Part shown: positions 40,715-64,000 of the stretch, one piece after another
Position numbering within the stretch: position 1 is the first letter of the stretch
Layout of the letters: each line of letters begins with the position of its first letter
Assembly: GCA_009914755.4 (NCBI GenBank)
Contig: CP068257.2
Location: 8,128,001-8,192,000, forward strand
Source of the DNA: the human T2T-CHM13v2.0 reference genome, Homo sapiens
Length of the DNA stretch: 64,000 nt
Reading direction: 5' to 3'
Program-made: the position numbers and the translations under genes
Notes under the pieces: generated by a model
Told to the model about the DNA's origin: nothing
Databases searched by the model: none
Seen by the model: only the letters and a program-made list of their open reading frames with translations

Positions 40715-41484
40715 TCTTCACATAAAAACTAGACAGAAGATTTCTGAGAAACTTTTTTGTGATATGTGCATTCACCTCACAGAGTTTAACCATTCTTTTG
40801 ATTGAGCAGTTTGGTAAAAGTCTTGTTGTAGAATCTACAAAAGGATATTTGTGAGCACTTTGAAGCCTGAGGTGAAAAAGTAAATATCTTCACAGCAAAA
40901 CTAGAAAGATGGTGTCTGAGAAAGTGCTCTGTGATGTTTGAATTCATCTCACAGACTTCAACTTTTATATTGATTTAGCATATTGGAAACAGTCTTTTTG
41001 TAGAATCTCCAAAGGGATATTTTTGTACACTTGGAGGCCAATAGTGAGAAAGGAAATATCTTCACATGAATACTAGACAGAAGCTTTCTGAGAACTTCTG
41101 TTTTATGTGTGCATTCCTCTCAAACAGTTGAACCATTCTTTTGATTGAGCAGTTTGGAAACAGTCTTTTTGTAGAATCAGCAAAGGGATATTGTGAGCGC
41201 TTTGAGTCCTACGGGGAAAAAGGAAATATTTTCACATAAAAACTCTACAGAAGGTTTCTGAGAAACTGCTTTGTAATGTGTGCATTCATCTCACAGAGGT
41301 AAATGTTTCTTTTCATTGAGTAGATGGGAAACTCTTTTCTTGTAGAATCTGCAAAGGGATATTTGTGAGCACTTTGAGGCTTATGGTGAAAAAGGAAATA
41401 TCTTCATATAAAATGTAGACAGAAGCTTTCTGAGGAACATATTTGTGATTTATGCATTCATCTCATAGAGTTGAACCATTCTTA
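40715..41484 (+). repeat. Alpha satellite, divergent monomeric type, ~4.5 monomers of 171 bp in consensus orientation.
   Basis: The region begins tcttcacataaaaactagacagaagatttctgagaaacttttttgtgatatgtgcattcacctcacagagtttaaccattcttttgattgagcagtttgg. It shows the canonical alpha monomer landmarks, repeated with a ~171-bp period. Confidence 0.95.
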
Positions 41485-42670
41485 TTTTTTTTGGAGCTCT
41501 GGGTTTATTTTTTAATTATTTACTTTTATTATTATTATACTTTAAGTTTTAGGGAACATGTGTACAACGTGCAGGTTTGTTACATATGTATACATGTGCC
41601 ATGTTTGTGTGTTGCTCCCATGAACTCATCATTTAGCATTAGGTATACCTCCTAATGCTATCCCTCCCCCTCCCCCTCCTCCCACCCAACTACAATCCCT
41701 GGTGTGTGGTGTGTGATGTTTCCCTTCCTGTGTCCATGTGTTCTCTTCGATCAATTCCCAACTATGTGTGAGAACATGTGGTGTTTTATTTTTTGTCCTT
41801 GCGATAGTTCGCTGAGAATGATGGTTTCCAGCTTCATCCATGTCCCTACAAAGGACATGAACTCATCATTTTTTATGGCCACATAGTCTTCCATGATGTA
41901 TATGTGCCACATTCTCTTCATCCAGTCTACAGTGGTTGGACATTTACGTTGGTTCCAAGTCTTTGCTATTGTGAATAGTGCTGCTATAAACATACGTGTG
42001 CATGTGTCCTTATAGCAGCATGATTTATAGTCCTTTGGGTATATACCCAGTAATGGCATGGCTGGCTCAAGTGGTATTTCTAGTTCTGGATCCCTGAGGA
42101 ATCGCCATGCCGACTTCCACAATGGTTGAACTAGTTTACAGTCCCACCAACAGTGCAAAAGTGTTCCTATTTCTCACATCCTCTCCAGCACCTGTTGTTT
42201 CCTGACTTTTTAATGATCGCCATTCTAACTGGTGTGAGATGGTATCTCATTGTGGTTTTGACTTGCATTTCTCTGATGGCCAGTGAAGATGAGCATTTTT
42301 TCATTGTTCATTGGCAGCATAAATGTCTTCTTTTGAGAAATGTCTGTTCATATCCTTTGCCCACTTTTTGATGGGGTTGTTTGGTTTTTTTCCTGTAAAT
42401 TTGTCTGAGTTCATTGTAGATTCTGGATATTAACCCTGTGTCAGATGAGTAGGTTGCAAAATTTTTCTCCCATTCTATAGGATTCCTGTTCACTCTGATG
42501 GTGTTTTCTTTAGCTGGGCAGAACCTCCTTAGTTTAATGAGATCCCATTTGTCAATTGTGACTTTTGTTGCCATTGCTTTAGGTGTTTTAGACATGAAGA
42601 TCTTGCCCATGCCTATGTCCAGAATGCTATGGCCTAGGTTTTCTTCTAGAAATTTTATGTGATGCGTTAT
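41485..42670 (-). mobile_element. LINE-1 (L1PA-type) 3' end fragment, 5'-truncated to ~1.2 kb: poly-A tail, 3'UTR and the C-terminal part of ORF2.
   Basis: On the + strand a T8 run at 41,485-41,492 is followed by ggagctctgggtttattttttaattatttacttttattattattatactttaagttttagggaacatgtgtacaacgtgcaggtttgttacatatgtatacatgtgccatg...attaggtatacctcctaatgctatccctccccc. This is the reverse complement of the canonical L1 3'UTR end. The minus-strand ORFs 41751..42158 and 42308..42610 encode recognisable L1 ORF2 C-terminal peptide ([16 protein letters not shown]..., ...MFSHIVGN* and [27 protein letters not shown]...). Similarity to L1 fades at ~42,640-42,670. Confidence 0.9.
41751..42610 (-). pseudogene. 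L1 ORF2 C-terminal remnant. Only the 3' end of the gene is present and it is interrupted by a frameshift or stop between the two ORF pieces, so it is non-functional.
   Basis: Two separate minus-strand ORFs of 135 aa and 100 aa both align conceptually to the last ~300 residues of human L1 ORF2p. No 5' part, endonuclease domain or RT core is present. Confidence 0.85.
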
Positions 42671-48600: not shown

Positions 48601-51174
48601 AATATCTTCACATAAAAACTAGATAGAAGGTTTCTAAGAAACTCCTTGGTGAAGTGTGCTTTCATCTCACAGAGTTGAAACTTTCTTGTGATTAAGCAGT
48701 TTGAAAACACTCTTTTTGTAGATTCTGCAAGTGGATATTTGGAGCACTTTGAGACCCATGGTGAAAAAGGAAATATCTTCACATAAAAACTAAACAGAAG
48801 TTTTCTGAGAAACTTCTTTGTGATATGTGCATTCATCACACAGAGTTGAACCGTTCTTTTGATTGAGCAATTTGGAAAAAGTCTTTTTGTAGAATCTGCA
48901 AATGGATATTTGGAGCACTTTGAGGCCTATGGTGAAAAATGAAACTTCTTCATATAAAACAAGACAAAAGCATTCTGAGAAACTTCTTTGTGATGTGTGA
49001 CAAAGTTTAGCCTTTCTTTTCATCGAGCAGTTTGGAAGCAGTCTTTTTGGAGAATCTGCAAAGGGATATTTGTTAGTGGTTTGTGGCCTATGGTGAAAAA
49101 GGAAATACCTTCACATAAAAACCAGACAGAAGCTTTTTGAGAAACCTCTTTATGATGTTTGCATTCATTTCACAGAGTCGAATCTTCCTTTTCATTGAGC
49201 AGTTTGGAAACAGTCTTTTTCCACAATCTGTAAAGGGATATTTCTGAGTGATATTTCTGAATGAAGAAATATCTTCATATAAAAATTAGACAGAAGTATT
49301 CTGGGAAACTTCTTTGTGATGTGTGCATTCAAACCACAGAGTTGAAGCTTTCATTTCATTGAGTAGTTCAGAAATAGTCTTTTCATACAATCTGCAAAGG
49401 GATATTTCTGAGCCCTTTGAGGCCTATGGTGAAATAGGAAATATCTTTACATAAAAACTAGACAGAAGCTTTCTGAGGAACTTCTTTGTGATGCGTGCTT
49501 TCATCTCACAGAGTTCAACCTTTTTTTTTGATGGAGCAGTTTGGATACAGTCATTTTGTAGAATCTGCAAAGGGATATTTCTGAGTCCTTTGAGTCCTAT
49601 AGTGAAATAGGGATTATCTTCACATAATAACTAGACAGAAGCATTCTGAGAAACTTCCTTGTGATGTGCCCTTTCATTTCACAGAGTTGAACCTTTCCTT
49701 TGATTGAGCAGTTTGGAAACACTCTTTTTGTAGAACCTGTAAACAGATATTTGGAGCGCTTTGAGGCATAAGGTGAAAAAGGAAGAATCTGCACACAATA
49801 ACTAGATAGAAACTTTCTGAGAAACTTCTTCATGATGCGTGCTTTCATCTCACAGATTCAAACCTTTCTTTTCATTGAGTAGTTTAGGAACAAGTCATTT
49901 TGTAGAATCTGCAAAGTTATATTTGTGAGCTGTTTGAGGCCTATGGTGAAAAACAAAATATCTTCACATAAAAACCAGACAGAAGATTTTTGAGATAAAT
50001 CTTTGTGATGTTTGCATTCATCTCAAAGAGTTGAACTTTTCTGTTCATTGAGGAGTTTGGAAACTTTCTTTTTGTGCAAACTGCAAAGGAGTGTTTCTGA
50101 GTGGTTTGAGGCCTATGGTGAAAAAGAAATAACTTCACATAAAAACTAGACACAAGCATTCTGAGAAACTTCTTTTTTATCTGTGCATTCACCTCACAGA
50201 GTTGAACCTTTCTTTTCATTGAGCAGTTCAGAAACAGTCTTTTTGTAGAATCTGCAAAGGGATATTTGTGATCCCATTGAGGCCTACGGTGAAATAGGAA
50301 ATATCTTCACATAAATACTAGACAGAAGCTTTCTGAGAAACATCTTTGTGATGTGTGCTTTCATCCTACAGAGTTGAACCCTTCTGTTGATTGATCACTT
50401 TGGAAACAGTCTTTGGAAGAATCTACAAATGGATATTTGGAGAGCTTTGAGGCCTAGGTTTAAAAAGGAAATATATTCACATAAAAAGTAGAGGGAAGCA
50501 TTTTGAGAAACTTCTTTGTGATGTGTGCTTTCATTTCACAGAGTTGAATCATTATTTTGGCTGAGCATCTTGGAAACAGTCTTTTTGTACAATCTGCAAA
50601 GGGATATTTGTGAGCCCTTTATGGCCTGTGGTGAAATACGAAATATCTTCACATAAAAACTAGACAGAAGATTTCTGAGAAACTTCTTTGTGATGTGTGC
50701 CTTCATCTCACAGTGTTGAACATTTCTTTTGATTGATCAGTTTGGAAAGTTTTTTTGTAGAATCTGCAAATGGATATTTGGAGATATTTGAGGCCTGTGG
50801 TGAAAAAGGAAGTATCTTAACATAAAAACTAGACAGAAGATTTCTGGAAAACTTCTTTGTGATGTGTGAATTCATGTCACAGAGTTGAAGCTTTCTTCTG
50901 ATTGAGTAGTTTGGAAACAGTCTTTTTGTAGAATCTGCAAAGGGTTATTTATGAGCGGTTTGAGGCCTATGGTGAAAAAGGGAGTATCAGCAAATAAAAA
51001 CTAGACAGAAACTTTCTGAGAAACTTCTCTGTGATGTGTGCATTCATCTCGCAGAGTGGAAGTTTTCTTTGATTGAGCAGTTTGGAAACAGTCTTTTTGT
51101 AGAATCTGCAAAGGGATATATGTAGGTGGTTTGAGGTCTATAGTGAAAATGGAAATATCTTCACATAAAAACTA
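42671..51174 (+). repeat. Alpha satellite, divergent monomeric array of ~50 monomers in consensus orientation, with no HOR structure detected.
   Basis: It continues the monomer interrupted by the L1: ...aaccattctta[L1]ttattttgattaatgagtttgg. Monomers share the ttctgagaaacttctttgtgatgtgtgcattcatctcacagagttgaac...ggcctatggtgaaaaaggaaatatcttcacataaaaactagacag frame but differ pairwise by roughly 15-30%. ORF-track peptides from different monomers are not repeated. Small lesions are visible, for example a truncated monomer at ~49,241-49,270 and a 12-bp aaactttctg duplication at ~47,750. Confidence 0.9.
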
Positions 51175-52700
51175 ACTGCTCAATGGGAAGAAATTTTTAC
51201 TTCTGTGTGATAAATGCAAATGTCACAAAGGAGTTACTCAGAAAACTTCTTTCTGCTTTTAATGTGAAGATATTTCCTTTTTCACCATATGCCTCAATGT
51301 GCTCGCAGATATCCCTTTGCAGATTCTACAAAAATACTGTTTCCAAACTGCTCAATAAACAGAATGGTTCAACCCTGTGAGACGAATGTGCACATCACAA
51401 AGAAGTTTCTCAGAAAACTCCCTTCTCATTTTTATGTGAAGATATTTCCTTTTAGAACATAGGCCTAAATGCACTCCCAAATATACCTTTGCAGAATCTA
51501 CAAAAAGACTGTTTCCAAACTGCTCAATCAAAAGAAAGTTTCAACTCTGTTAGATGAATGCACACATCAGGAAGTACTTTCTCAGCAAGCTTCTCACAAG
51601 TTTTTATGTGAAGATATTTCCTTTTTCAAAGTGGGTCACAAAGCACTCAAAAAAATCCCTTTGCAGACTCTAGAATAACAGAGTTTACAAACTACTCAAT
51701 GAAAAGAAATGTTTACTTCTGTGAGATGAATACACATATCTTAAAACAGCTTCTCAGAATGCTTATTTCTAGTTTTTATGTGAAGATATTTCCTTTTTCA
51801 CCATAGGCTTCAACTTGCTCCTAAATATCCCTTTGCAGATTCTACAAAACGACTGTTTCCAAACTGCTCATTCCAAAGACAGGTTCAGCTCTTTGAGATG
51901 AATGCACACAACACAAAGAAGTTTCTCAGAATGCTTCTACCTAGTTTTTATGTGAAGATATTTCCTTTTCCAACAGAGGCCTTAAACTGTTCTCACATAT
52001 ACCTCTTCAGATACTACAAAAAGACTGTTTCCAGACTGCTCCATCAAAAGAAAAGTTCAACTCTGTGAGATAAATGGATACATCACAAAAAATTTTCTCA
52101 GAATACTTCTGTCTACATTTTATCTGAAGATATTCCTTTTTCACCATAGGCCTCTAACTTCGCAGAAATATTCCTTTGCAGATTTTACAAAAAGACTGTT
52201 TCCAAACTGCTCAATGAAAAGAAAGTTTCACCTCTGTGAGATGTATGCAGTCATCAAAAGGAAGTTTCTCAGAAAGCTTCTGTTTATATTTCATGTGAAG
52301 ATATGTCCTTTTTCACCATAGGCCTCAAAGTGCTTGAAGTATCATTTGCAGATTCTACAAAAAGACTGTTTCCAAACTGCTCAATCAAAAAAAAGGTTCA
52401 AACCTGTGAGATGAAAGCACACATCATTAAGAAGTTTCTCAGAATGCTTCTGTCTAGTTTTTATATGAAGATATTTCCTTTTCCACCATAGGCCTCAAAG
52501 TGCTCCAAATATCCACTTGAACACTCTATGAAACAGTTTTTCAAAACTGCTCAATAAAAGAAAGATTCAGCTCTGTGACATGAATGCACACAGCACAAAG
52601 AAGTTTCTCAGAATGCTTGTGTCTAGTTTTTATGTGAAGATGCTTCCTTTTCCACCAGAAGCCTCAAAGCACTTCAAATATACACTTGCAGATACTGCAA
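51175..52700 (-). repeat. Alpha satellite in inverted (minus) orientation. About 9 divergent monomers lie between the inversion breakpoint and the HOR array.
   Basis: From 51,175 the + strand reads ctgctcaatgggaagaaatttttacttctgtgtgataaatgcaaatgtcacaaaggagttactcagaaaac, the reverse complement of the canonical monomer. These monomers are not copies of the downstream HOR units, as I found on comparing 51.2-52.5 kb with 55.1-56.7 kb. Confidence 0.85.
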
Positions 52701-52825
52701 AAAGAGTGTTTCAAAACTGCTCAATCAATAGAAAGTTTGAAGTCTGTGAGATGAATGCACACATCACAAAGAAGTTTCTGAGAATGCTTCTGCCTTGTTT
52801 TTATGAGAAGATATTTCCTTTTTCA
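52701..52825 (-). repeat. Array-edge hybrid monomer at the start of the HOR array.
   Basis: 52,700-52,760 resembles the monomer at ~56,100-56,230 (caaaaagagtgtttcaaaactgctcaatcaatagaaagtttgaagtctgtgagatgaatgcacacatcacaaag). The sequence then runs directly into ccataggcctcaaagcactggtaatatcc, which in full HOR copies lies three monomers further on (56,741). Confidence 0.5.
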
Positions 52826-55800
52826 CCATAGGCCTCAAAGCACTGGTAATATCCATTTGCAGATACTACAAAAAGACTGTTCCCAAACTGCTCAATAAAA
52901 AGAAAGTTTCAACTCTAGGAGATAAAAGCAAATATCACAAAGAAGTTTCTCAGAAACTTTCTATCTAGTTTTTATGTGAACATATTTCTTATCACCCCAT
53001 AGACCTCAATCGGCTCACAAGTATCCTTCTGCAGATTGTAAAAAAGTACTGTTTCCAAACCGCTCAATCACAGGAAAGGTTTAACTCTGTGAAATGAATG
53101 CATCCATCACAGAGAAGTTTCTCAGAATGCTTCAGTCTCGTTTTCATGTGAAGAAGATTCCTTTTCCACCATATTCCTCATGTGCTCCAAATAAACACTT
53201 GCAGATTCCGCTAAAAGAGTGTTTCAAAACTGCTCAATCAAAAGAAAGGTTCTAGTCGGTGAGATGAATGCACACATCACAAAGAAGTTTCTATGAATGT
53301 TTCTGTCTGATTTATATTGAAGATATTTCCTTTTTAACCGTAGGCCTCAGAGTGCTTAAAATATCCATTTGCAGATACTAGAAAAGACTGTTTCCAAACT
53401 GCTCAATCAAAGTAAAGTTCAACTCAGTGAGATGAATGCACACATCACCAAGACGTTTCTGAGAAAGATTCTGTCTCGTTTTTCTGTGAAGATATTTCCT
53501 GTTTCCCCAGAGGCATCAATGGGCTCACAAATATTCCTTTGCATATTCTACAAAATGACTGTTCAGAAGGTGCTCAATCAAAAAAAAAGTTCAACAGTGT
53601 GAGATGAATGCGCCCATTCAAAGGAAGTTTCTCAGAATTCTTCTATCTAGTTTTTATGTGAAGATATTTCCTTTTTCACTATAGGCCACAAAGTGCTCCA
53701 AATATCCACTTGCAGACTCTACAAAACGAGTGTATCCACACTGCTCAATCAAAAGAAAATTTCAACTGTGTGAGATGAATGCACACATCAAAATAAATTT
53801 CTCCAAAACTTCTGCCTACTTTTTATGGGAAGATATTTCGTTTTTCAACGTAGGCCAAAAGCACTCCAAATATCAATTTGCAGATTCTACAAAAAGACTG
53901 TTTCCAAACTGCTCAATCAAGAGAAAGTTTCAACCCGGTGAGTAGAAGTCACACATGACAAAATAGTTTCTCAGAAAGTATCTGTCTAGTTTTTATGTGA
54001 AGATATTTCCTATCACCCCAGAAGCCTCAATGGGCTCACAAATATTCCTTTGCAGATTCTACAAAACGACAGTTTCAAAACTGCTGAATCAAAAGAAAGG
54101 TTCAACTCTGTGAGATGAATGCACAGATCACAAATAAGTTTCTCAGAATGCTGCTGTCTAGTTTTTATGGGAAGATAATTCCTTTTCCACCATAGGCCTC
54201 AAAGCTCTCCAAATAGCCATTTGCAGATACTGTAAAAAGACTGTTTCCAAACTGCTGAATCAAAAGAAAGGTTGAACTCCATGAGTTGAATGCACACGTC
54301 ACAAAGAAGTTTCTCAGAATGGTTCTGACTAGTTTTTATGTGAAGATATTTTCTTTTCCACCATAGGCCTCAAAGCGCTGAAAATATCCACTTGAAGATT
54401 CTACAGAAAGAGAGTTTCAAAACTGCTCAAACAAAAGAAAGATTCAACTCTGTGAGATGAATGCACACATCACAAAGAAGTTTCTCAGAATGCTTCTGTC
54501 TAGTTTTATGTAAAGATATTTCCTTTTCTACTATAGGCCACAAAGCACTCCAAATATCAACTTGCAGATTCTGCAGAAAGAGATTTTCAAAGCTGCTCAA
54601 TCAAAAGAAAAGTTCAACTCTTTGAGATGAATGCACACATCATGAAGTTCCTCAGAATGCTTCTATTTTTATGTGAAGATATATCCTTTTCTACCATAGA
54701 CCACAAAACGCTCCAAATATCCCCTTGCAGTTTCTACTAAAAGAGTGTTTCCAAACGGCTCAATCAAAAGAAAGTTTCAACTCTGTGAGATGAATGCACA
54801 CATCATAAAGAAGTTTCTCAGTAATTTTCTGTCTAGTTTTTATGTGAAGATATTTCCTTTCCTACTATAGGCATGAAAGTGCTGCAAATATCCGTTTGCA
54901 GATACTGCAAAAAGACTGTTTCCACACTGCTCAATCAAAGGAAATGTCCAACTCTTTGAGTTGAATGCATGCATCTCGAAGAGATTACTTATAATGATTC
55001 TGTCTAGTTTTGATGTGAAGATATTTGCTTTTCCACCAGTGGCCTCAAACTCTCCAAATATCCACTTGCAGATTCTACAATAAGAGTGTTTCAAAACTGC
55101 TCAATCAAAAGAAAGGTTCAACACTGTGAGATGAATGCACACGTCACAAAGCACTTTCTTAGAATGCTTCTGTCTAGCTTTTATGTGAAGATATTTCCTT
55201 TTTCACCATAGGCTGTAAAGCGCTCCAAATATCCCTTTCAGATTCTACAGAAAGAGTATTTCAAAACTGTTCAATCAAAAGAGAAACTCAACTCTGGTGA
55301 TGAATGCACGCATCACAAAGCAGTTTCTCATAATGTTTCTGTCTAGTTTTTATGTGAAGATATTTCCTTTTCCACTATAGGCCGTAATGCACTCCTAATA
55401 TCCACTTGCAGATTCTACAGAAAGACTGTTTGCAAACTGCTCAAACAAAAGAAAAGTTCAACTCTGTGAGTTGAATGAGCACATCACAAAGAAGTTTCTC
55501 AGAATGCTTCTGTCTAGTTTTTATGTGAATATATTTCCTTTTCCACTATACGCCGTCATGCGCTCCAAATATCCACTTGCAGATTCTACAAAAAGACTGA
55601 TTCCAAACTGCTCAATCAAAAGAAAAGCTCAACTCTGTGAATTGAATGAGCACATCACAAAGAAGTTTCTCAGAATGCTTCTATCTCGTTTTTATGTGAA
55701 TATATTTCCTTTTCCACCACAGGCCACAAACACTCCAAATATCCACTTGAAGATTCTACAAAAAGAGTGCTTCAAAAATGCTCAATCAAAAGAAAGGTTC

Positions 55801-56740
55801 AACTCTTTGAGATGGATGCACACATCACAAAGAAGCTTCTCAGAATGTTTCTGTCTAGTTTTTTTGTGAAGATATTTCCTTTTCCACCGTAGTCCTCAAG
55901 TCTCTCCAAATATCTACTTTCAGAATCTCCAAAAAGAGTGTTTTAAAACTGCTGTACCAAAGAAAGTTTCATGTCTGAGATATGACTGCATACAACACAG
56001 AGAAGTTTCTCAAAGTGCTTCTGTTTATTTTTTTTATGAAGATATTTCCTTTTCCACTATGGGCCACAGAGCGCTCCAAATATCGACTTGCAGATTCTAC
56101 AAAAAGAGTGTTTCAAAACTGCTCAATCAATAGAAAGTTTGAAGTCTGTGAGATGAATGCACACATCACAAAGGAGTTTCTAAGAATGCTTCCATCTGAA
56201 TTTTATGTGAGGATATTTCCTTTTTCACCATAGGCCTCAGTACACTCCAAATATCCATTTACAGATAATACAAATGACTGTATCCAAACTGCTCAATCAA
56301 AAGAAAGTTCAACTGTGTATGATGAAGGCACACATCACAAGGCTGTTTCTCAGAAAGATTTTGTCTAGTTTTTAGGTGAAGATATTTCTTATTTCCCCAG
56401 AGGCCTCAATGGGCTCTCAAATATTCCCTTTCATATTCTACTAAATGACTGTATCGAAGCTGCTCAATCAAAAGACGGGTTTAACAGTGTGAGACGAAAA
56501 TACACCTTCCTAGGAAGTTTCTCAGAATTCTTCTTTCTAGTTTTTTATGTGAAGATATTTCCTTTTCCACTATAGGCCTCAAAGCGTTCCAAATATCCAC
56601 TTGCAGATACCACAAATAGAGCGTTTCAAAACTGCTCAATCAAAAGAAAGGTTCAACTCTGTGAGATGAATGCAGACATCAAAAAGAAGTTTCTCAGAAT
56701 GCTTCCGCCTAGTTTTTATGTGAAGATATTTCCTTTTTCA
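52826..56740 (-). repeat. Alpha satellite HOR copy 1, 3,915 bp (~23 monomers), the short form with a single copy of the 333-bp dimer.
   Basis: The anchor ccataggcctcaaagcactggtaatatccatttgcagatactacaaaaagactgttcccaaactgctcaataaaaag occurs at 52,826, 56,741 and 60,988. ORF-track peptides recur at the same 3,915/4,247-bp offsets (53369/57284/61531, 53730/57645/61892, 54840/59088/63335, 55982/60229). Confidence 0.85.
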
Positions 56741-59700
56741 CCATAGGCCTCAAAGCACTGGTAATATCCATTTGCAGATACTACAAAAAGACTGTTCCCA
56801 AACTGCTCAATAAAAAGAAAGTTTCAACTCTATGAGATAAAAGCAAATATCACAAAGAAGTTTCTCAGAAACTTTCTATCTAGTTTTTATGTGAACATAT
56901 TTCTTATCACCCCATAGACCTCAATCGGCTCACAAGTATCCTTCTGCAGATTGTAAAAAACTACTGTTTCCAAACCGCTCAATCACAGGAAAGGTTTAAC
57001 TCTGTGAAATGAATGCATCCATCACAGAGAAGTTTCTCAGAATGCTTCCGTCTCGTTTTCATGTGAAGAAGATTCCTTTTCCACCATATTCCTCATGCGC
57101 TCCAAATAAACACTTGCAGATTCCGCTAAAAGAGTGTTTCAAAACTGCTCAACCAAAAGAAAGGTTCTAGTCGGTGAGATGAATGCACACATCACAAAGA
57201 AGTTTCTATGAATGCTTCTGTCTGATTTATATTGAAGATATTTCCTTTTTCACCGTAGGCCTCAGAGTGCTTAAAATATCCATTTGCAGATACTAGAAAA
57301 GACTGTTTCCAAACTGCTCAATCAAAATAAAGTTCAACTCAGTGAGATGAATGCACACATCACCAAGACGTTTCTGAGAAAGATTCTGTCTCGTTTTTAT
57401 GTGAAGATATTTCCTGTTTCCCCAGAGGCATCAATGGGCTCACAAATATTCCTTTGCATATTCTACAAAATGACTGTTTAGAAGGTGCTCAATCAAAAAA
57501 AAAGTTCAACAGTGTGAGATGAATGCGCCCATTCAAAGGAAGTTTCTCAGAATTCTTCTATCTAGTTTTTATGTGAAGATATTTCCTTTTTCACTATAGG
57601 CCACAAAGTGCTCCAAATATCCACTTGCAGACTCTACGAAACGAGTGTATCCACACTGCTCAAACAAAAGAAAATTTCAACTGTGTGAGATGAATGCACA
57701 CATCAAAATAAATTTCTCCAAAACTTCTGCCTACTTTTTATGGGAAGATATTTCGTTTTTCAACGTAGGCCAAAAGCACTCCAAATATCAATTTGCAGAT
57801 TCTACAAAAAGACTGTTTCCAAACTGCTCAATCAACAGAAAGTTTCAACCCGGTGAGTAGAAGTCACACATGACAAAATAGTTTCTCAGAAAGTATCTGT
57901 CTAGTTTTTACGTGAAGATATTTCCTATCACCCCAGAAGCCTCAATGGGCTCACAAATATTCCTTTGCAGATTCTACAAAAAGGCAGTTTCAAAACTGCT
58001 GAATCAAAAGAAAGGTTCAACTCTGGGAGATGAATGCACAGATCACAAATAAGTTCCTCAGAATGCTGCTGCCTAGTTTTAATGGGAAGAGATTTCCTTT
58101 TCCACCATAGGCCTCAAAGCTCTCCAAATAGCCATTTGCAGATACTGTAAAAAGACTGTTTCCAAACTGCTGAATCAAAAGAAAGGTTGAACTCCATGAG
58201 TTGAATGCACACGTCATAAAGAAGTTTCTCAGAATGGTTCTGACTAGTTTTTATGTGCAGATATTTTCTTTTCCACCATAGGCCTCAAAGCGCTGAAAAT
58301 ATCCACTTGAAGATTCTACAGAAAGAGAGTTTCAAAACTGCTCAAACAAAAGAAAGATTCAACTCTGTGAGATGAATGCACACATCACAAAGAAGTTTCT
58401 CAGAATGCTACTGTCTAGTTTTATGTAAAGATATTTCCTTTTCTACTCTAGGCCACAAAGCACTCCAAATATCAACTTGCAGATTCTGCAGAAAGAGTTT
58501 TTCAAAGCTGCTCAATCAAAAGAAAAGTTCAACTCCTTGAGATGAATGCACACATCATGAAGTTCCTCAGAATGCTTCTATTTTTATGTGAAGATATATC
58601 CTTTTCTACCATAGACCACAAAACGCTCCAAATATCCCCTTGCAGTTTCTACTAAAATAGTGTTTCCAAACGGCTCAATCAAAAGAAAGTTTCAACTTTG
58701 TGAGATGAATGCACACATCACAAAGAAGTTTCTCAGAATGCTTCTGTCTAGTTTTATGTAAAGATATTTCCTTTTCTACTATAGGCCACAAAGCACTCCA
58801 AATATCAACTTGCAGATTCTGCAGAAAGAGTTTTTCAAAGCTGCTCAATCAAAAGACAAGTTAAACTCTTTGAGATGAATGCACACATCATGAAGTTCCT
58901 CAGAATGCTTCTATTTTTATGTGAAGATATATCCTTTTCTACCATAGACCACAAAACGCTCCAAATATCCCCTTGCAGTTTCTACTAAAAGAGTGTTTCC
59001 AAACGGCTCAATCAAAAGAAAGTTTCAACTCTGTGAGATGAATGCACACAACATTAAGTAGTGTCTCAGTAATTTTCTGTCTAGTTTTTATGTGAAGATA
59101 TTTCCTTTCCTACTATAGGCCTGAAAGTGCTGCAAATATCCGTTTGCAGATACTGCAAAAAGACTGTTTCCACACTGCTCAATCAAAGGAAATGTCCAAC
59201 TCTGTGAGTTGAATGCACGCATCTCAAAGAGATTACTTATAATGATTCTGTCTAGTTTTGATGTGAAGATATTTGCTTTTCCACCAGTGGCCTCAAACTC
59301 TCCAAATATCCACTTGCAGATTCTACAATAAGAGTGTTTCAAAACTGCTCAATCAAAGAAAGGTTCAACACTGTGAGATGAATGCACACGTCACAAAGCA
59401 CTTTCTTAGAATGCTTCTGTCTAGCTTTTATGTGAAGATATTTCCTTTTTCACCATAGGCTGCAAAGCGCTCCAAATATCCCTTTCAGATTCTACAGAAA
59501 GAGTATTTCAAAACTGTTCAATCAAAAGAGAAACTCAACTCTGGTGATGAATGCACGCATCACAAAGCAGTTTCTCATAATGTTTCTGTCTAGTTTTTAT
59601 GTGAAGATATTTCATTCTCCACTATAGGCCGTAATGCACTCCTAATATCCACTTGCAGATTCTACAAAAAGACTGTTTGCAAACTGCTCAAACAAAAGAA

Positions 59701-60987
59701 AAGTTCAACTCTGTGAGTTGAATGAGCACATCACAAAGAAGTTTCTCAGAATGCTTCTGTCTAGTTTTTATGTGAATATATTTCCTTTTCCACTATAGGC
59801 CATCATGCGCTCCAAATATCCACTTGCAGATTCTACAAAAAGACTGTTTCCAAACTGCTCAATCAAAAGAAAAGCTCAACTCTGTGAGTTGAATGAGCAC
59901 ATCACAAAGAAGTTTCTCAGAATGTTTCTATCTAGTTTTTATGTGAATATATTTCCTTTTCCACCACAGGCCACAAAACCTCCAAATATCCACTTGAAGA
60001 TTCTACAAAAAGAGTGCTTCAAAAATGCTCAATCAAAAGAAAGGTTCAACTCTTCGAGATGGACGCACACATCACAAAGAAGCTTCTCAGAATGTTTCTG
60101 TCTAGTTTTTTTGTGAAGATATTTCCTTTTCCACCGTAGTCCTCAAGTCTCTCCAAATATCTACTTTCAGAATCTCCAAAAAGAGTGTTTTAAAACTGCT
60201 GTACCAAAGAAAGTTTCATGTCTGAGATATGACTGCATACAACACAGAGAAGTTTCTCAAAGTGCTTCTGTTTATTTTTTTTATGAAGATATTTCCTTTT
60301 CCACTATGGGCCACAGAGCGCTCCAAATATCGACTTGCAGATTCTACAAAAAGAGTGTTTCAAAACTGCTCAATCAATAGAAAGTTTGAAGTCTGTGAGA
60401 TGAATGCACACATCACAAAGGAGTTTCTAAGAATGCTTCCATCTGAATTTTATGTGAGGATATTTCCTTTTTCACCATAGGCCTCAGTACACTCCAAATA
60501 TCCATTTACAGATAATACAAATGACTGTATCCAAACTGCTCAATCAAAAGAAAGTTCAACTGTGCATGATGAATGCACACATCACAAGGGTGTTTCTCAG
60601 AAAGATTTTGTCTTGTTTTTAGGTGAAGATATTTCTTATTTCCCCAGAGGCCTCAATGGGCTCTCAAATATTCCCTTTCATATTCTACTAAATGACTGTA
60701 TCGAAGCTGCTCAATCAAAAGACGGGTTTAACAGTGTGAGACGAAAATACACCTTCCTAGGAAGTTTCTCAGAATTCTTCTTTCTAGTTTTTTATGTGAA
60801 GATATTTCCTTTTCCACTATAGGCCTCAAAGCGTTCCAAATATCCAATTGCAGATACTACAAATAGAGCGTTTCAAAACTGCTCAATCAAAAGAAAGGTT
60901 CAACCCTGTGAGATGAATGCAGACATCAAAAAGAAGTTTCTCAGAATGTTTCCGCCTTGTTTTTATGTGAAGATATTTCCTTTTTCA
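56741..60987 (-). repeat. Alpha satellite HOR copy 2, 4,247 bp (~25 monomers), the long form with a tandem duplication of a two-monomer unit.
   Basis: The segment beginning cacatcacaaagaagtttctcagaatgct(a/t)ctgtctagttttatgtaaag occurs twice in tandem at 58,381-58,713 and 58,714-59,045. In copy 1 it occurs once, at 54,466-54,798. Copy 2 and copy 3 peptides are identical or differ by one residue. Confidence 0.85.
58714..59045 (-). repeat. Extra 332/333-bp alpha dimer. It is the second copy of the tandem duplication that distinguishes the long HOR form from the short one.
   Basis: It is near-identical to 58,381-58,713. Both copies are also present in copy 3 at ~62,625-63,290. Only one copy is present in HOR copy 1. 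Confidence 0.8.
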
Positions 60988-63900
60988 CCATAGGCCTCAA
61001 AGCACTGGTAATATCCATTTGCAGATACTACAAAAAGACTGTTCCCAAACTGCTCAATAAAAAGAAAGTTTCAACTCTAGGAGATAAAAGCAAATATCAC
61101 AAAGAAGTTTCTCAGAAACTTTCTATCTAGTTTTTATGTGAACATATTTCTTATCACCCCATAGACCTCAATCGGCTCACAAGTATCCTTCTGCAGATTG
61201 TAAAAAACTACTGTTTCCAAACCGCTCAATCACAGGAAAGGTTTAACTCTGTGAAATGAATGCATCCATCACAGAGAAGTTTCTCAGAATGCTTCCGTCT
61301 CGTTTTCATGTGAAGAAGATTCCTTTTCCACCATATTCCTCATGCGCTCCAAATAAACACTTGCAGATTCCGCTAAAAGAGTGTTTCAAAACTGCTCAAT
61401 CAAAAGAAAGGTTCTAGTCGGTGAGATGAATGCACACATCACAAAGAAGTTTCTATGAATGCTTCTGTCTGGTTTATATTGAAGATATTTCCTTTTTCAC
61501 CGTAGGCCTCAGAGTGCTTAAAATATCCATTTGCAGATACTAGAAAAGACTGTTTCCAAACTGCTCAATCAAAATAAAGTTCAACTCAGTGAGATGAATG
61601 CACACATCACCAAGACGTTTCTGAGAAAGATTCTGTCTCGTTTTTATGTGAAGATATTTCCTGTTTCCCCAGAGGCATCAATGGGCTCACAAATATTCCT
61701 TTGCATATTCTACAAAATGACTGTTTAGAAGGTGCTCAATCAAAAAAAAAGTTCAACAGTGTGAGATGAATGCGCCCACTCAAAGGAAGTTTCTCAGAAT
61801 TCTTCTATCTAGTTTTCATGTGAAGATATTTCCTTTTTCACTATAGGCCACAAAGTGCTCCAAATATCCACTTGCAGACTCTACGAAACGAGTGTATCCA
61901 CACTGCTCAATCAAAAGAAAATTTCAACTGTGTGAGATGAATGCACACATCAAAATAAATTTCTCCAAAACTTCTGCCTACTTTTTATGGGAAGATATTT
62001 CGTTTTTCAACGTAGGCCAAAAGCACTCCAAATATCAATTTGCAGATTCTACAAAAAGACTGTTTCCAAACTGCTCAATCAACAGAAAGTTTCAACCCGG
62101 TGAGTAGAAGACACACATGACAAAATAGTTTCTCAGAAAGTATCTGTCTAGTTTTTACGTGAAGATATTTCCTATCACCCCAGAAGCCTCAATGGGCTCA
62201 CAAATATTCCTTTGCAGATTCTACAAAACGACAGTTTCAAAACTGCTGAATCAAAAGAAAGGTTCAACTCTGGGAGATGAATGCACAGATCACAAATGAG
62301 TTTCTCAGAATGCTGCTGCCTAGTTTTAATGGGAAGAGATTTCCTTTTCCACCATAGGCCTCAAAGCTCTCCAAATAGCCATTTGCAGATACTGTAAAAA
62401 GACTGTTTCCAAACTGCTGAATCAAAAGAAAGGTTGAACTCCATGAGTTGAATGCACACGTCATAAAGAAGTTTCTCAGAATGCTTCTGACTAGTTTTTA
62501 TGTGAAGATATTTTCTTTTCCACCATAGGCCTCAAAGCGCTGAAAATATCCACTTGAAGATTCTACAGAAAGAGAGTTTCAAAACTGCTCAAAAAAAAGA
62601 AAGATTCAACTCTGTGAGATGAATGCACACATCACAAAGAAGTTTCTCAGAATGCTTCTGTCTAGTTTTATGTAAAGATATTTCCTTTTCTACTCTAGGC
62701 CACAAAGCACTCCAAATATCAACTTGCAGATTCTGCAGAAAGAGTTATTCAAAGCTGCTCAATCAAAAGAAAAGTTCAACTCCTTGAGACGAATGCACAC
62801 ATCATGAAGTTCCTCAGAATGCTTCTATTTTTATGTGAAGATATATCCTTTTCTACCATAGACCACAAAACGCTCCAAATATCCCCTTGCAGTTTCTACT
62901 AAAAGAGTGTTTCCAAAAGGCTCAATCAAAAGAAAGTTTCAAATCTGTGAGATGAATGCACACATCACAAAGAAGTTTCTCAGAATGCTTCTGTCTAGTT
63001 TTATGTAAAGATATTTCCTTTTCTACTATAGGCCACAAAGCACTCCAAATATCAACTTGCAGATTCTGCAGAAAGAGTTTTTCAAAGCTGCTCAGTCAAA
63101 AGACAAGTTCAACTCTTTGAGATGAATGCACACATCATGAAGTTCCTCAGAATGCTTCTATTTTTATGTGAAGATATATCCTTTTCTACCATAGACCACA
63201 AAACGCTCCAAATATCCCCTTGCAGTTTCTACTAAAAGAGTGTTTCCAAACGGCTCAATCAAAAGAAAGTTTCAACTCTGTGAGATGAATGCACACATCA
63301 TTAAGAAGTGTCTCAGTAATTTTCTGTCTAGTTTTTATGTGAAGATATTTCCTTTCCTACTATAGGCCTGAAAGTGCTGCAAATATCCGTTTGCAGATAC
63401 TGCAAAAAGACTGTTTCCACACTGCTCAATCAAAGGAAATGTCCAACTCTGTGAGTTGAATGCACGCATCTCAAAGAGATTACTTATAATGATTCTGTCT
63501 GGTTTTGATGTGAAGATATTTGCTTTTCCACCAGTGGCCTCAAACTCTCCAAATATCCACTTGCAGATTCTACAATAAGAGTGTTTCAAAACTGCTCAAT
63601 CAAAAGAAAGGTTCAACACTGTGAGATGAATGCACACGTCACAAAGCACTTTCTTAGAATGCTTCTGTCTAGCTTTTATGTGAAGATATTTCCTTTTTCA
63701 CCATAGGCTGCAAAGCGCTCCAAATATCCCTTTCAGATTCTACAGAAAGAGTATTTCAAAACTGTTCAATCAAAAGAGAAACTCAACTCTGGTGATGAAT
63801 GCACGCATCACAAAGCAGTTTCTCATAATGTTTCTGTCTAGTTTTTATGTGAAGATATTTCATTCTCCACTATAGGCCGTAATGCACTCCTAATATCCAC

Positions 63901-64000
63901 TTGCAGATTCTACAAAAAGACTGTTTGCAAACTGCTCAAACAAAAGAAAAGTTCAACTCTGTGAGTTGAATGAGCACATCACAAAGAAGTTTCTCAGAAT
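60988..64000 (-). repeat. Alpha satellite HOR copy 3, long form, truncated by the window end.
   Basis: It is collinear with copy 2 at a +4,247 offset throughout. Examples are 57284..57481 vs 61531..61728 (identical 65-aa peptide), 58017..58217 vs 62264..62464 (1 aa difference) and 59088..59342 vs 63335..63589 (1 aa difference). Confidence 0.85.

What the first reader, a model, noticed from the sequence alone, without database searches (positions are those of the whole stretch)
54466..59045. HOR structural variant: a 333-bp two-monomer unit is single in copy 1 and tandemly duplicated in copies 2 and 3
In copy 1 the dimer beginning cacatcacaaagaagtttctcagaatgcttctgtctagttttatgtaaag occurs once, at 54,466-54,798. 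In copy 2 it occurs twice back to back, at 58,381-58,713 and 58,714-59,045. Copy 3 likewise has it twice, at ~62,625-63,290. This accounts exactly for the 3,915 vs 4,247 bp copy lengths. The short form sits at the array edge next to the divergent monomers and the long form is interior. This is a direct footprint of unequal crossing-over generating and spreading HOR variants.
Basis: seen in the sequence. Interest (0 to 1): 0.55.

Follow-up and report, generated by a model that had tools for sequence, protein, structure and literature searches.

The report
Known chr21 23/25-monomer alpha-satellite variant

Summary
Monomer decomposition gives copy 1 as 23 monomers (52,760-56,674; 3,915 bp). Copy 2 has 25 monomers (56,675-60,921; 4,247 bp). 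Copy 3 is cut off by the window end. The long copies carry the 333-bp dimer "TU" twice, at 97.6-97.9% identity.

Two corrections:
- The second dimer ends at 59,046, not 59,045.
- The length difference is 332 bp because copy 2 also lacks one base in monomer W.

The array matches the published "23/25mer HOR" of T2T-CHM13 chromosome 21 (PMC12385485). All 23 published consensus monomers match mine one-to-one and in order. The duplicated types are t11 and t12, and the published copy order starts 23, 25, 25.

New detail from this work:
- Three sites separate the two dimers in both long copies, so the duplication arose once.
- The single dimer of copy 1, the published consensus and 12 independent contig copies all carry the ancestral base at those sites. 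This favours 23 to 25 by duplication.
- The junction lies in the longest identity tract (30 bp) found two monomers apart.

The claim "short at the edge, long interior" fails. In the full published array the 23-mer is the majority form and also lies inside. Unequal exchange is plausible but not shown directly. Interest is low.

The parts
51174..52626 (+). Divergent, non-HOR alpha-satellite monomers (A to I) between the strand switch and the HOR array
   Evidence: Their best identity to any other monomer is 77-89%, and they show no colinear relation to the HOR.
52627..52759 (+). Start of the HOR array: the 3' part of an f-type (t23) monomer, more diverged than the copies that follow
   Evidence: Identity at lags 3,915 and 8,162 starts at about 52,627 and has many mismatches up to about 52,700.
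52760..56674 (+). HOR copy 1, the short form: 23 monomers, 3,915 bp (J...S-TU-V...f, equal to t1...t23)
   Evidence: It is 98.4% identical to copy 2 outside the indel.
54466..54798 (+). The single TU dimer (t11-t12) of copy 1. It reads A/A/T at the diagnostic sites 54,533, 54,609 and 54,621.
54443..54472 (+). 30-bp tract across the S|T junction that is identical to the tract at 54,776-54,805
   Evidence: It is the longest exact match at a spacing of about two monomers in the 23-mer (30 bp, against 27, 25 and 23 for the next ones).
54776..54805 (+). 30-bp tract across the U|V junction, the partner of 54,443-54,472
56675..60921 (+). HOR copy 2, the long form: 25 monomers, 4,247 bp, with TU present twice and a 1-bp deletion in monomer W near 59,355
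58381..58713 (+). Copy 2, first dimer (TU1). Diagnostic sites 58,448, 58,524 and 58,536 read C/A/C, of which two are derived.
58691..58720 (+). Interval that must contain the duplication junction (U1|T2). It is bounded on the left by the last base that separates U from S and on the right by the first base that separates T from V.
58714..59046 (+). Copy 2, second dimer (TU2). Diagnostic sites 58,781, 58,857 and 58,869 read A/C/T, of which one is derived.
60922..64000 (+). HOR copy 3, the long form, cut off by the window end inside the monomer after Y
   Evidence: It is 99.1-99.2% identical to copy 2.
62628..62960 (+). Copy 3, first dimer (TU1), reading C/A/C at sites 62,695, 62,771 and 62,783
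62961..63293 (+). Copy 3, second dimer (TU2), reading A/C/T at sites 63,028, 63,104 and 63,116

Best explanation
The region is the left edge of the alpha-satellite "23/25mer" higher-order-repeat (HOR) array on the short arm of human chromosome 21. This array lies in the pericentromere, has no CENP-B boxes, and is not the array that paper calls chromosome 21's major HOR array (the 11mer at about 11 Mb; from my own knowledge that is the kinetochore-forming array).

The basic unit is a 23-monomer, 3,915-bp repeat. The 25-monomer form arose from it once. A homology-guided, monomer-in-register exchange or template switch, misaligned by two monomers, joined the end of monomer U (t12) to the start of monomer T (t11). 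The join lies inside a 30-bp tract that the S|T and U|V junctions share, and it duplicated the 333-bp TU dimer.

The two dimers then picked up three fixed differences. After that, the whole 25-monomer unit was copied to neighbouring positions by unit-level amplification, which is how copies 2 and 3 came to share those differences.

Shown here: the structure, the paralogy of the dimers, the single origin, the junction interval, and the ancestral state of the short form's dimer.

Inferred: the direction 23 to 25, and the molecular process (unequal sister-chromatid or homolog exchange, or a replication-based route).
For: Structure: monomer string and coordinates. Copies 1 and 2 differ by a single 333-bp indel plus a 1-bp indel.

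Identity of the array:
- The 23 published consensus monomers t1-t23 (supplement of PMC12385485) match my classes J-f one-to-one and in order at 94-100%. The next-best non-cognate monomer matches reach at most 92% (t17 against Y).
- The duplicated types are t11 and t12, and the published order begins 23mer, 2x25mer.
- 7 x 3,915 + 6 x 4,247 = 52,887, which equals 8,233,839 - 8,180,952, the published interval.
- hg38 lists the same reverse-oriented chr21p array with a unit of 3,915 bp.

Single origin: three sites separate dimer 1 from dimer 2 identically in copies 2 and 3.

Direction:
- At all three sites copy 1 has the base held by 58-64 of the 70 other alpha monomers in the array, i.e. the ancestral base.
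- The pattern A-A-T cannot be made by any single dimer-1/dimer-2 crossover.
- The published array-wide t11 consensus is also A-A-T.
- All 12 T monomers in 10 independent metagenome-derived contigs are A-A-T, and their dimers are closest to copy 1's dimer: 1-4 differences, against 2-5 for dimer 2 and 5-9 for dimer 1.

Junction: a 30-bp exact tract is shared by the S|T and U|V junctions. It is the longest exact match at a spacing of about two monomers in the 23-mer, and there is no filler sequence at the junction.

Not the active array: no CENP-B core occurs even with one mismatch allowed.
Against: - Only three diagnostic sites polarise the event, and gene conversion could blur such patterns.
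- The 30-bp tract beats the next-longest tracts (27 and 25 bp) only narrowly, so its role as the substrate is suggestive rather than proven.
- The interior 23-mers of the full array are outside the window. Some of them, such as the one lying between the two 25-mer clusters, could be secondary deletions.
- Assignment to CHM13 chr21 rests on published consensus sequences and coordinate arithmetic, not on a direct alignment to the assembly. Related arrays on chromosomes 13 and 14 are reported in the literature.
- The short-read metagenome contigs are collapsed consensus sequences. They could not show a 25-mer even if one were present.
Confidence: 0.8

Rival explanations
1. The 25-monomer form is the older one. 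Copy 1 (and the 23-mers in general) arose by deletion of one dimer through unequal exchange between dimer 1 and dimer 2.
For: Unequal exchange yields deletions as readily as duplications. In the published array a lone 23-mer sits between two 25-mer clusters, and that copy could be such a deletion.
Against: A deletion product should read as dimer 1 on the left and dimer 2 on the right. Every such chimera carries at least one derived base, yet copy 1 carries none (A-A-T). The array-wide consensus and 12 independent copies are also A-A-T. The 23-mer is also the majority form, 13 copies against 6.
Confidence: 0.1
2. The duplication was made by a replication-based process, such as slippage, template switching or break-induced replication, or by gene conversion with a misaligned template. 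No reciprocal crossing-over was involved.
For: The junction lies in a short identity tract of only 30 bp. Replication-based mechanisms use tracts of that length readily. No reciprocal 21-mer lacking TU is seen in the window or listed among the published canonical copies.
Against: Nothing in the sequence argues against it. The products of the two routes are identical. Unequal exchange is simply the textbook model for satellite arrays.
Confidence: 0.35
3. The extra dimer is an assembly artefact, either a false duplication in the long copies or a collapse in copy 1.
For: Satellite arrays are hard to assemble, and no reads were available here.
Against: An artefactual duplicate would be identical to its source. 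Here the dimers differ at 7-8 sites, and three of those differences recur in both long copies. The same structure was reported from the T2T-CHM13 assembly, with six 25-mers.
Confidence: 0.03

Closest known systems
The 23/25mer alpha-satellite HOR array of T2T-CHM13 chromosome 21 (Gluncic, Vlahovic, Rosandic and Paar 2025, Genes 16:885, PMC12385485)
   Same: All 23 monomer types match in the same order. The 25mer is the 23mer plus duplicated t11-t12. The copy order starts 23, 25, 25. The unit lengths measured here reproduce the published coordinates.
   Different: Nothing structural; this is the same object. That paper describes the arrangement as a "Willard's/Cascading" mixed array. In the parts I read, it does not polarise the event, map the junction, or show a single origin.
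The hg38 chr21p "reverse" 23mer HOR (Gluncic et al. 2019, Sci Rep 9:12629, PMC6718397). Those authors attribute one of their two chr21 23mer arrays, without saying which, to D21Z3 / pTRA-1 with a 3.9-kb unit.
   Same: 23 monomers, a unit of 3,915 bp, monomers reversed relative to the other chr21 arrays, and a position on the short arm far from the main centromeric array.
   Different: No 25mer was reported there. The equation with D21Z3/pTRA-1 is the authors' statement about "one of our 23mers" and was not tested here, because the pTRA-1 sequence and the Vissel and Choo paper were not available.
HOR structural variants in human centromeric arrays in general, e.g. the many variant HOR types on chr10 in the T2T centromere maps (bioRxiv 10.1101/2021.07.12.452052), and, from my own knowledge, the 16-, 15- and 13-monomer forms of D17Z1 (Waye and Willard 1986)
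   Same: Gain or loss of a whole number of monomers, in monomer register, with the variant units clustered locally.
   Different: Those cases are mostly in active arrays with CENP-B boxes. This is a small (about 73 kb), box-free pericentromeric array.

Membership tests
Alpha-satellite higher-order repeat (HOR) array | Tandem monomers of about 171 bp | tested here: met
   75 contiguous monomers of 166-172 bp lie between 51,219 and 63,974.
Alpha-satellite higher-order repeat (HOR) array | Monomers within a unit are divergent, while whole units are nearly identical | tested here: met
   Monomers of different types are 71-92% identical. Whole copies are 98.3-99.2% identical.
Chr21 23/25mer HOR (PMC12385485) | 23 monomer types t1-t23 in fixed order that match the published consensus | tested here: met
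   The match is one-to-one and colinear at 94-100% identity. Non-cognate matches reach at most 92%.
Chr21 23/25mer HOR (PMC12385485) | The 25mer equals the 23mer with t11 and t12 duplicated | tested here: met
   The duplicated monomers T and U are the 11th and 12th of the unit and match t11 and t12.
Chr21 23/25mer HOR (PMC12385485) | The array begins with 23mer, 25mer, 25mer, and the published coordinates fit units of 3,915 and 4,247 bp | tested here: met
   The order in the window is 23, 25, 25 (the last one partial). 7 x 3,915 + 6 x 4,247 = 52,887, which equals the published span. Individual copies vary by about 1 bp, so the base-exact agreement is partly luck.
Chr21 23/25mer HOR (PMC12385485) | Direct alignment to T2T-CHM13 chr21:8.13-8.19 Mb | not testable with these tools
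   No human reference genome is available in the tool set.
D21Z3 / pTRA-1 subfamily (3.9-kb unit, shared by chromosomes 13, 14 and 21) | Sequence identity to the pTRA-1 clone | not testable with these tools
   Only the unit length (3.9 kb against 3,915 bp) and a statement in PMC6718397 link the two. The original paper is not held.
HOR variant made by homologous unequal exchange | The indel is a whole number of monomers, in monomer register, with no foreign sequence at the junction | tested here: met
   The 333-bp indel equals T (167 bp) plus U (166 bp), and the junction is seamless.
HOR variant made by homologous unequal exchange | The breakpoint lies in a tract of identity between the misaligned monomers | tested here: met
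   A 30-bp exact tract is shared by the S|T and U|V junctions, and it is the longest at a spacing of about two monomers. The margin over other tracts is small.
HOR variant made by homologous unequal exchange | A reciprocal product exists (a 21-mer lacking TU), or flanking markers have been exchanged | not testable with these tools
   This needs the full array and population assemblies. None is present in the window.
Active (kinetochore-forming) centromeric HOR array | CENP-B boxes in alternate monomers (autosomal active arrays) | tested here: not met
   The core TTCGNNNNANNCGGG does not match on either strand, even with one mismatch allowed, in 40,701-64,000.
Active (kinetochore-forming) centromeric HOR array | CENP-A occupancy | not testable with these tools
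   No chromatin data are available. The paper places the major chr21 11mer array about 2.8 Mb away, at 10.96-11.30 Mb.

The most novel reading that the evidence does not exclude
The t10|t11 (S|T) junction may be a recurrent exchange point in this HOR family, not just the site of one old duplication. It has the longest identity tracts with several other monomer junctions (42, 34, 32, 30 and 29 bp). The 25-mer arose there. Independent short-read assemblies repeatedly break there or join other alpha satellite there. If so, the derived 25-mer could be a polymorphic marker, possibly specific to chromosome 21, for tracking exchange among acrocentric short arms.
Probability: 0.12. Interest if true: 0.3.

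Novelty: already known. Interest (0 to 1): 0.1.

Why it matters
It matters little beyond bookkeeping. HOR variants that differ by whole monomers are a long-established feature of alpha satellite, and this one has been described in print for the same assembly.

The small additions made here are:
- a single origin for the duplication;
- the direction 23 to 25, inferred from three polarised sites;
- a 30-bp junction tract.

Together they give a worked example of how such a variant can be dated and oriented from sequence alone. They also supply three marker sites for surveying the 25-mer in population assemblies of acrocentric short arms.

Tried and rejected
- Pfam scan of the LINE-1-like ORF found nothing. 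The solved-structure search then identified it as the C-terminus of ORF2p.
- A search for the T2T-style HOR name (S#C21...) returned only unrelated papers.
- The Science version of Altemose et al. and Vissel and Choo 1991 are not held. The bioRxiv version was read instead and does not mention a 23-mer in its main text.
- An exact search for the long-form-specific U|T junction found nothing in metagenome or prokaryote genome contigs. The pattern was also too strict for copy 3 of the window itself.
- A relaxed junction search in the ten contigs recovered only S|T junctions (3 substitutions) and one unclear two-substitution hit in L001.
- I considered whether contigs breaking at S|T prove that 25-mers exist in other people. 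I rejected this as inconclusive, because that junction is the most consensus-like in the unit and would tangle any short-read assembly graph.
- I considered whether the divergent monomers A to I are a decayed HOR copy. There is no colinear match.
- I considered whether the strand switch at 51,174 is a recent palindrome. It is not: the arms are only 76-84% alike.
- BLAST of the contigs against the 25-mer was ambiguous across TU/TU, so I replaced it with monomer decomposition.
Full report
**Observation.** The window is a primate pericentromere.
- A (CCATT)n satellite fills 18-40,703, followed by alpha satellite.
- Ungapped self-comparison shows 96-99% identity at lag 3,915 from about 52,640 to 54,800. 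It shows about 98-100% at lag 4,247 from about 55,080 onward. At lag 333 it is high only around the claimed dimers.

I cut the + strand array into 75 contiguous monomers with a profile search and clustered them at 93% identity. The resulting string is ABCDEFGHI, then JKLMNOPQRS-TU-VWXYZabcdef, then JKLMNOPQRS-TU-TU-VWXYZabcdef, then JKLMNOPQRS-TU-TU-VWXY up to the window end.
- Copy 1 (52,760-56,674) has 23 monomers and 3,915 bp.
- Copy 2 (56,675-60,921) has 25 monomers and 4,247 bp.
- Copy 3 is truncated.

A global alignment of copies 1 and 2 contains one 333-bp gap and one 1-bp gap. The second dimer of copy 2 ends at 59,046, and the difference of 332 bp is a 333-bp duplication minus a 1-bp deletion in monomer W of copy 2.

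**Surroundings.**
- The array starts mid-monomer at about 52,627 with a more diverged f-type fragment.
- Before it lie nine divergent monomers. A clean strand switch sits at 51,173/51,174 and is not a recent palindrome.
- About 8.5 kb of oppositely oriented monomeric alpha satellite comes before that.
- A 5'-truncated LINE-1 lies on the minus strand at about 41,484-42,660. Its ORF matches ORF2p residues 1141-1275 with E = 1.6e-77.
- No CENP-B box core occurs anywhere in the alpha part, even with one mismatch allowed.

**What it is.** A full-text search for 23mer/25mer alpha-satellite HORs found Gluncic et al. 2025 (PMC12385485). That paper describes a "23/25mer HOR array" on T2T-CHM13 chromosome 21 from 8,180,952 to 8,253,585.
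- Its first 14 copies run 23mer, 2x25mer, 23mer, 4x25mer, 6x23mer. Five variant copies follow.
- The 25mer is the 23mer with monomer types t11 and t12 duplicated.

I took the 23 consensus monomers from the paper's supplement and aligned their reverse complements to my monomers.
- t1...t23 match J...f one-to-one and in order at 94-100% identity. Non-cognate matches reach at most 92% (t17 against Y).
- t11 equals T and t12 equals U.
- With the lengths measured here, 7 x 3,915 + 6 x 4,247 = 52,887. This equals 8,233,839 - 8,180,952, the published offset of the 14th copy. Copies vary by about 1 bp, so the exactness is partly luck.

An earlier paper on hg38 lists the same short-arm array with reversed monomers and a unit of 3,915 bp. 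It links one chr21 23mer to D21Z3/pTRA-1, which has a 3.9-kb unit. I could not test that link. The inferred position of the window is about chr21:8,128,171-8,192,170. No human reference was available for a direct alignment.

**Single origin and direction.** Aligning the five dimers shows 13 variable sites.
- Ten are private to one dimer.
- Three separate dimer 1 from dimer 2 in the same way in copies 2 and 3. At the site equivalent to 54,533, dimer 1 has C and dimer 2 has A. At 54,609, dimer 1 has A and dimer 2 has C. At 54,621, dimer 1 has C and dimer 2 has T.

The duplication therefore predates the split of copies 2 and 3, and the whole 25-monomer unit was then copied.

Copy 1 reads A-A-T. 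In a multiple alignment of all monomers, 58-64 of the 70 other monomers carry those same bases. Copy 1 is thus ancestral at all three sites, dimer 1 has two derived bases, and dimer 2 has one. A deletion product of a modern 25-mer would read as dimer 1 on the left and dimer 2 on the right. Every such chimera keeps at least one derived base, so copy 1 is not a simple deletion derivative.

Two further lines agree with this.
- The published array-wide t11 consensus is also A-A-T.
- A 60-mer invariant in monomer U recovered ten contigs from public metagenome assemblies, presumably human DNA carried along in those samples. After decomposition, all 12 of their T monomers read A-A-T. The fully resolved contexts are S-TU-V. 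Their dimers are closest to copy 1's dimer: 1-4 differences, against 2-5 for dimer 2 and 5-9 for dimer 1.

Those contigs are collapsed short-read consensus sequences. They show what the common state is, but they could not display a 25-mer.

The two dimers differ by 2.1-2.4%. This exceeds the 0.8-0.9% between copies 2 and 3 and is similar to the 1.6-1.7% between copy 1 and the others. By my own Poisson arithmetic, 7 or more differences where 2.8 are expected has p of about 0.03. The duplication is therefore not recent.

**Mechanism.** The junction must lie between the last base that tells U from S and the first base that tells T from V. That interval is 30 bp (58,691-58,720 in copy 2). It corresponds to a tract identical between the S|T and U|V junctions of the 23-mer: 54,443-54,472 and 54,776-54,805, sequence TTCAACTCTGTGAGATGAATGCACACATCA. 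In a scan that ignores monomer phase, this is the longest exact match at a spacing of about two monomers anywhere in the unit. The margin is small, 30 bp against 27, 25 and 23.

The event is seamless and in monomer register. This fits a homology-guided exchange misaligned by two monomers. The sequence cannot tell reciprocal unequal crossing-over from replication-based template switching or gene conversion.

The structural claim is right. The claim that the short form marks the edge and the long form the interior is an artefact of seeing only three copies. In the full array the 23-mer is the majority (13 against 6 by the paper's Table 1) and fills most of the interior. The 25-mers form two clusters near this edge. 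"Direct footprint of unequal crossing-over" is the standard model and is plausible, but it is an inference.

**Novelty.** HOR variants that differ by whole monomers are a classical feature of alpha satellite and are catalogued genome-wide in the T2T centromere work. This particular variant is explicitly published. The polarity, single origin and junction tract worked out here are modest additions.

Noticed in passing
window 18-40,703: A 40-kb (CCATT)n satellite of the HSat2/3 type. Its strongest self-similarity is at lag 15, not lag 5. Its make-up shifts near 24 kb: GC rises from about 0.38 to 0.41-0.46, and CpG count per 4 kb falls from about 105 to 63-89.
   Followed up: partly
window 41,484-42,660 (minus strand): A 5'-truncated LINE-1 is inserted into alpha satellite. 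Its 135-aa ORF at 41,751-42,158 matches human ORF2p residues 1141-1275 with E = 1.6e-77, and the A-rich tail end lies at about 41,484. Profile hits on the two sides overlap by about 12 model positions (139-150), which hints at a target-site duplication. I did not check this.
   Followed up: partly
window 51,173/51,174: An abrupt switch of alpha-satellite orientation, from about 8.5 kb of monomeric alpha on one strand to the HOR-bearing block on the other. The inverted arms are only 76-84% alike, so this is a junction of old blocks and not a recent palindrome.
   Followed up: yes
window 55,309-55,650 (monomers Y and Z, = t16 and t17); also 59,556-59,897: These two neighbouring monomers of the unit are 91-92% identical and share a 41-bp exact tract at lag 171. 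Other monomer pairs are 71-89% identical. This looks like an older single-monomer duplication built into the 23-mer itself.
   Followed up: partly
window 40,701-64,000: The CENP-B box core does not match on either strand even with one mismatch allowed. Neither the HOR nor the flanking monomeric alpha has boxes.
   Followed up: yes
window 58,381-58,713 and 62,628-62,960, compared with 58,714-59,046 and 62,961-63,293: The first dimers of copies 2 and 3 differ from each other at 7 sites, and the second dimers at only 2. By my own binomial arithmetic the two-sided p is about 0.18, so this is probably noise.
   Followed up: partly
L001-L010 (metagenome contigs): Seven of the ten contigs begin at T, end at S, or join unrelated alpha monomers (80-90% identity) exactly at the S|T junction. 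L002 starts at the first base after the site that tells S from U. L008 shows a different, gradually decaying array edge (R 93%, S 94%, T 95%, U 91%, then 98-100%). L002 and L004 show other ends. These could be arrays on other acrocentric chromosomes or assembly chimeras.
   Followed up: partly
L010:1-50: The contig OWJD01000894.1 begins with a Nextera transposase adapter sequence (…GTCTCGTGGGCTCGGAGATGTGTATAAGAGACAG) fused to the alpha satellite. This is untrimmed adapter in a public assembly. The adapter identification is from my own knowledge.
   Followed up: no
window 52,627-52,930: Divergence rises toward the array edge. The initial f-type fragment has many mismatches against later copies, and the first J monomer is 96% identical to its counterparts, whereas 18 of the 22 other monomers are 97.7-100% identical (R 97.1%, V and a 96.5%).
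   Followed up: partly
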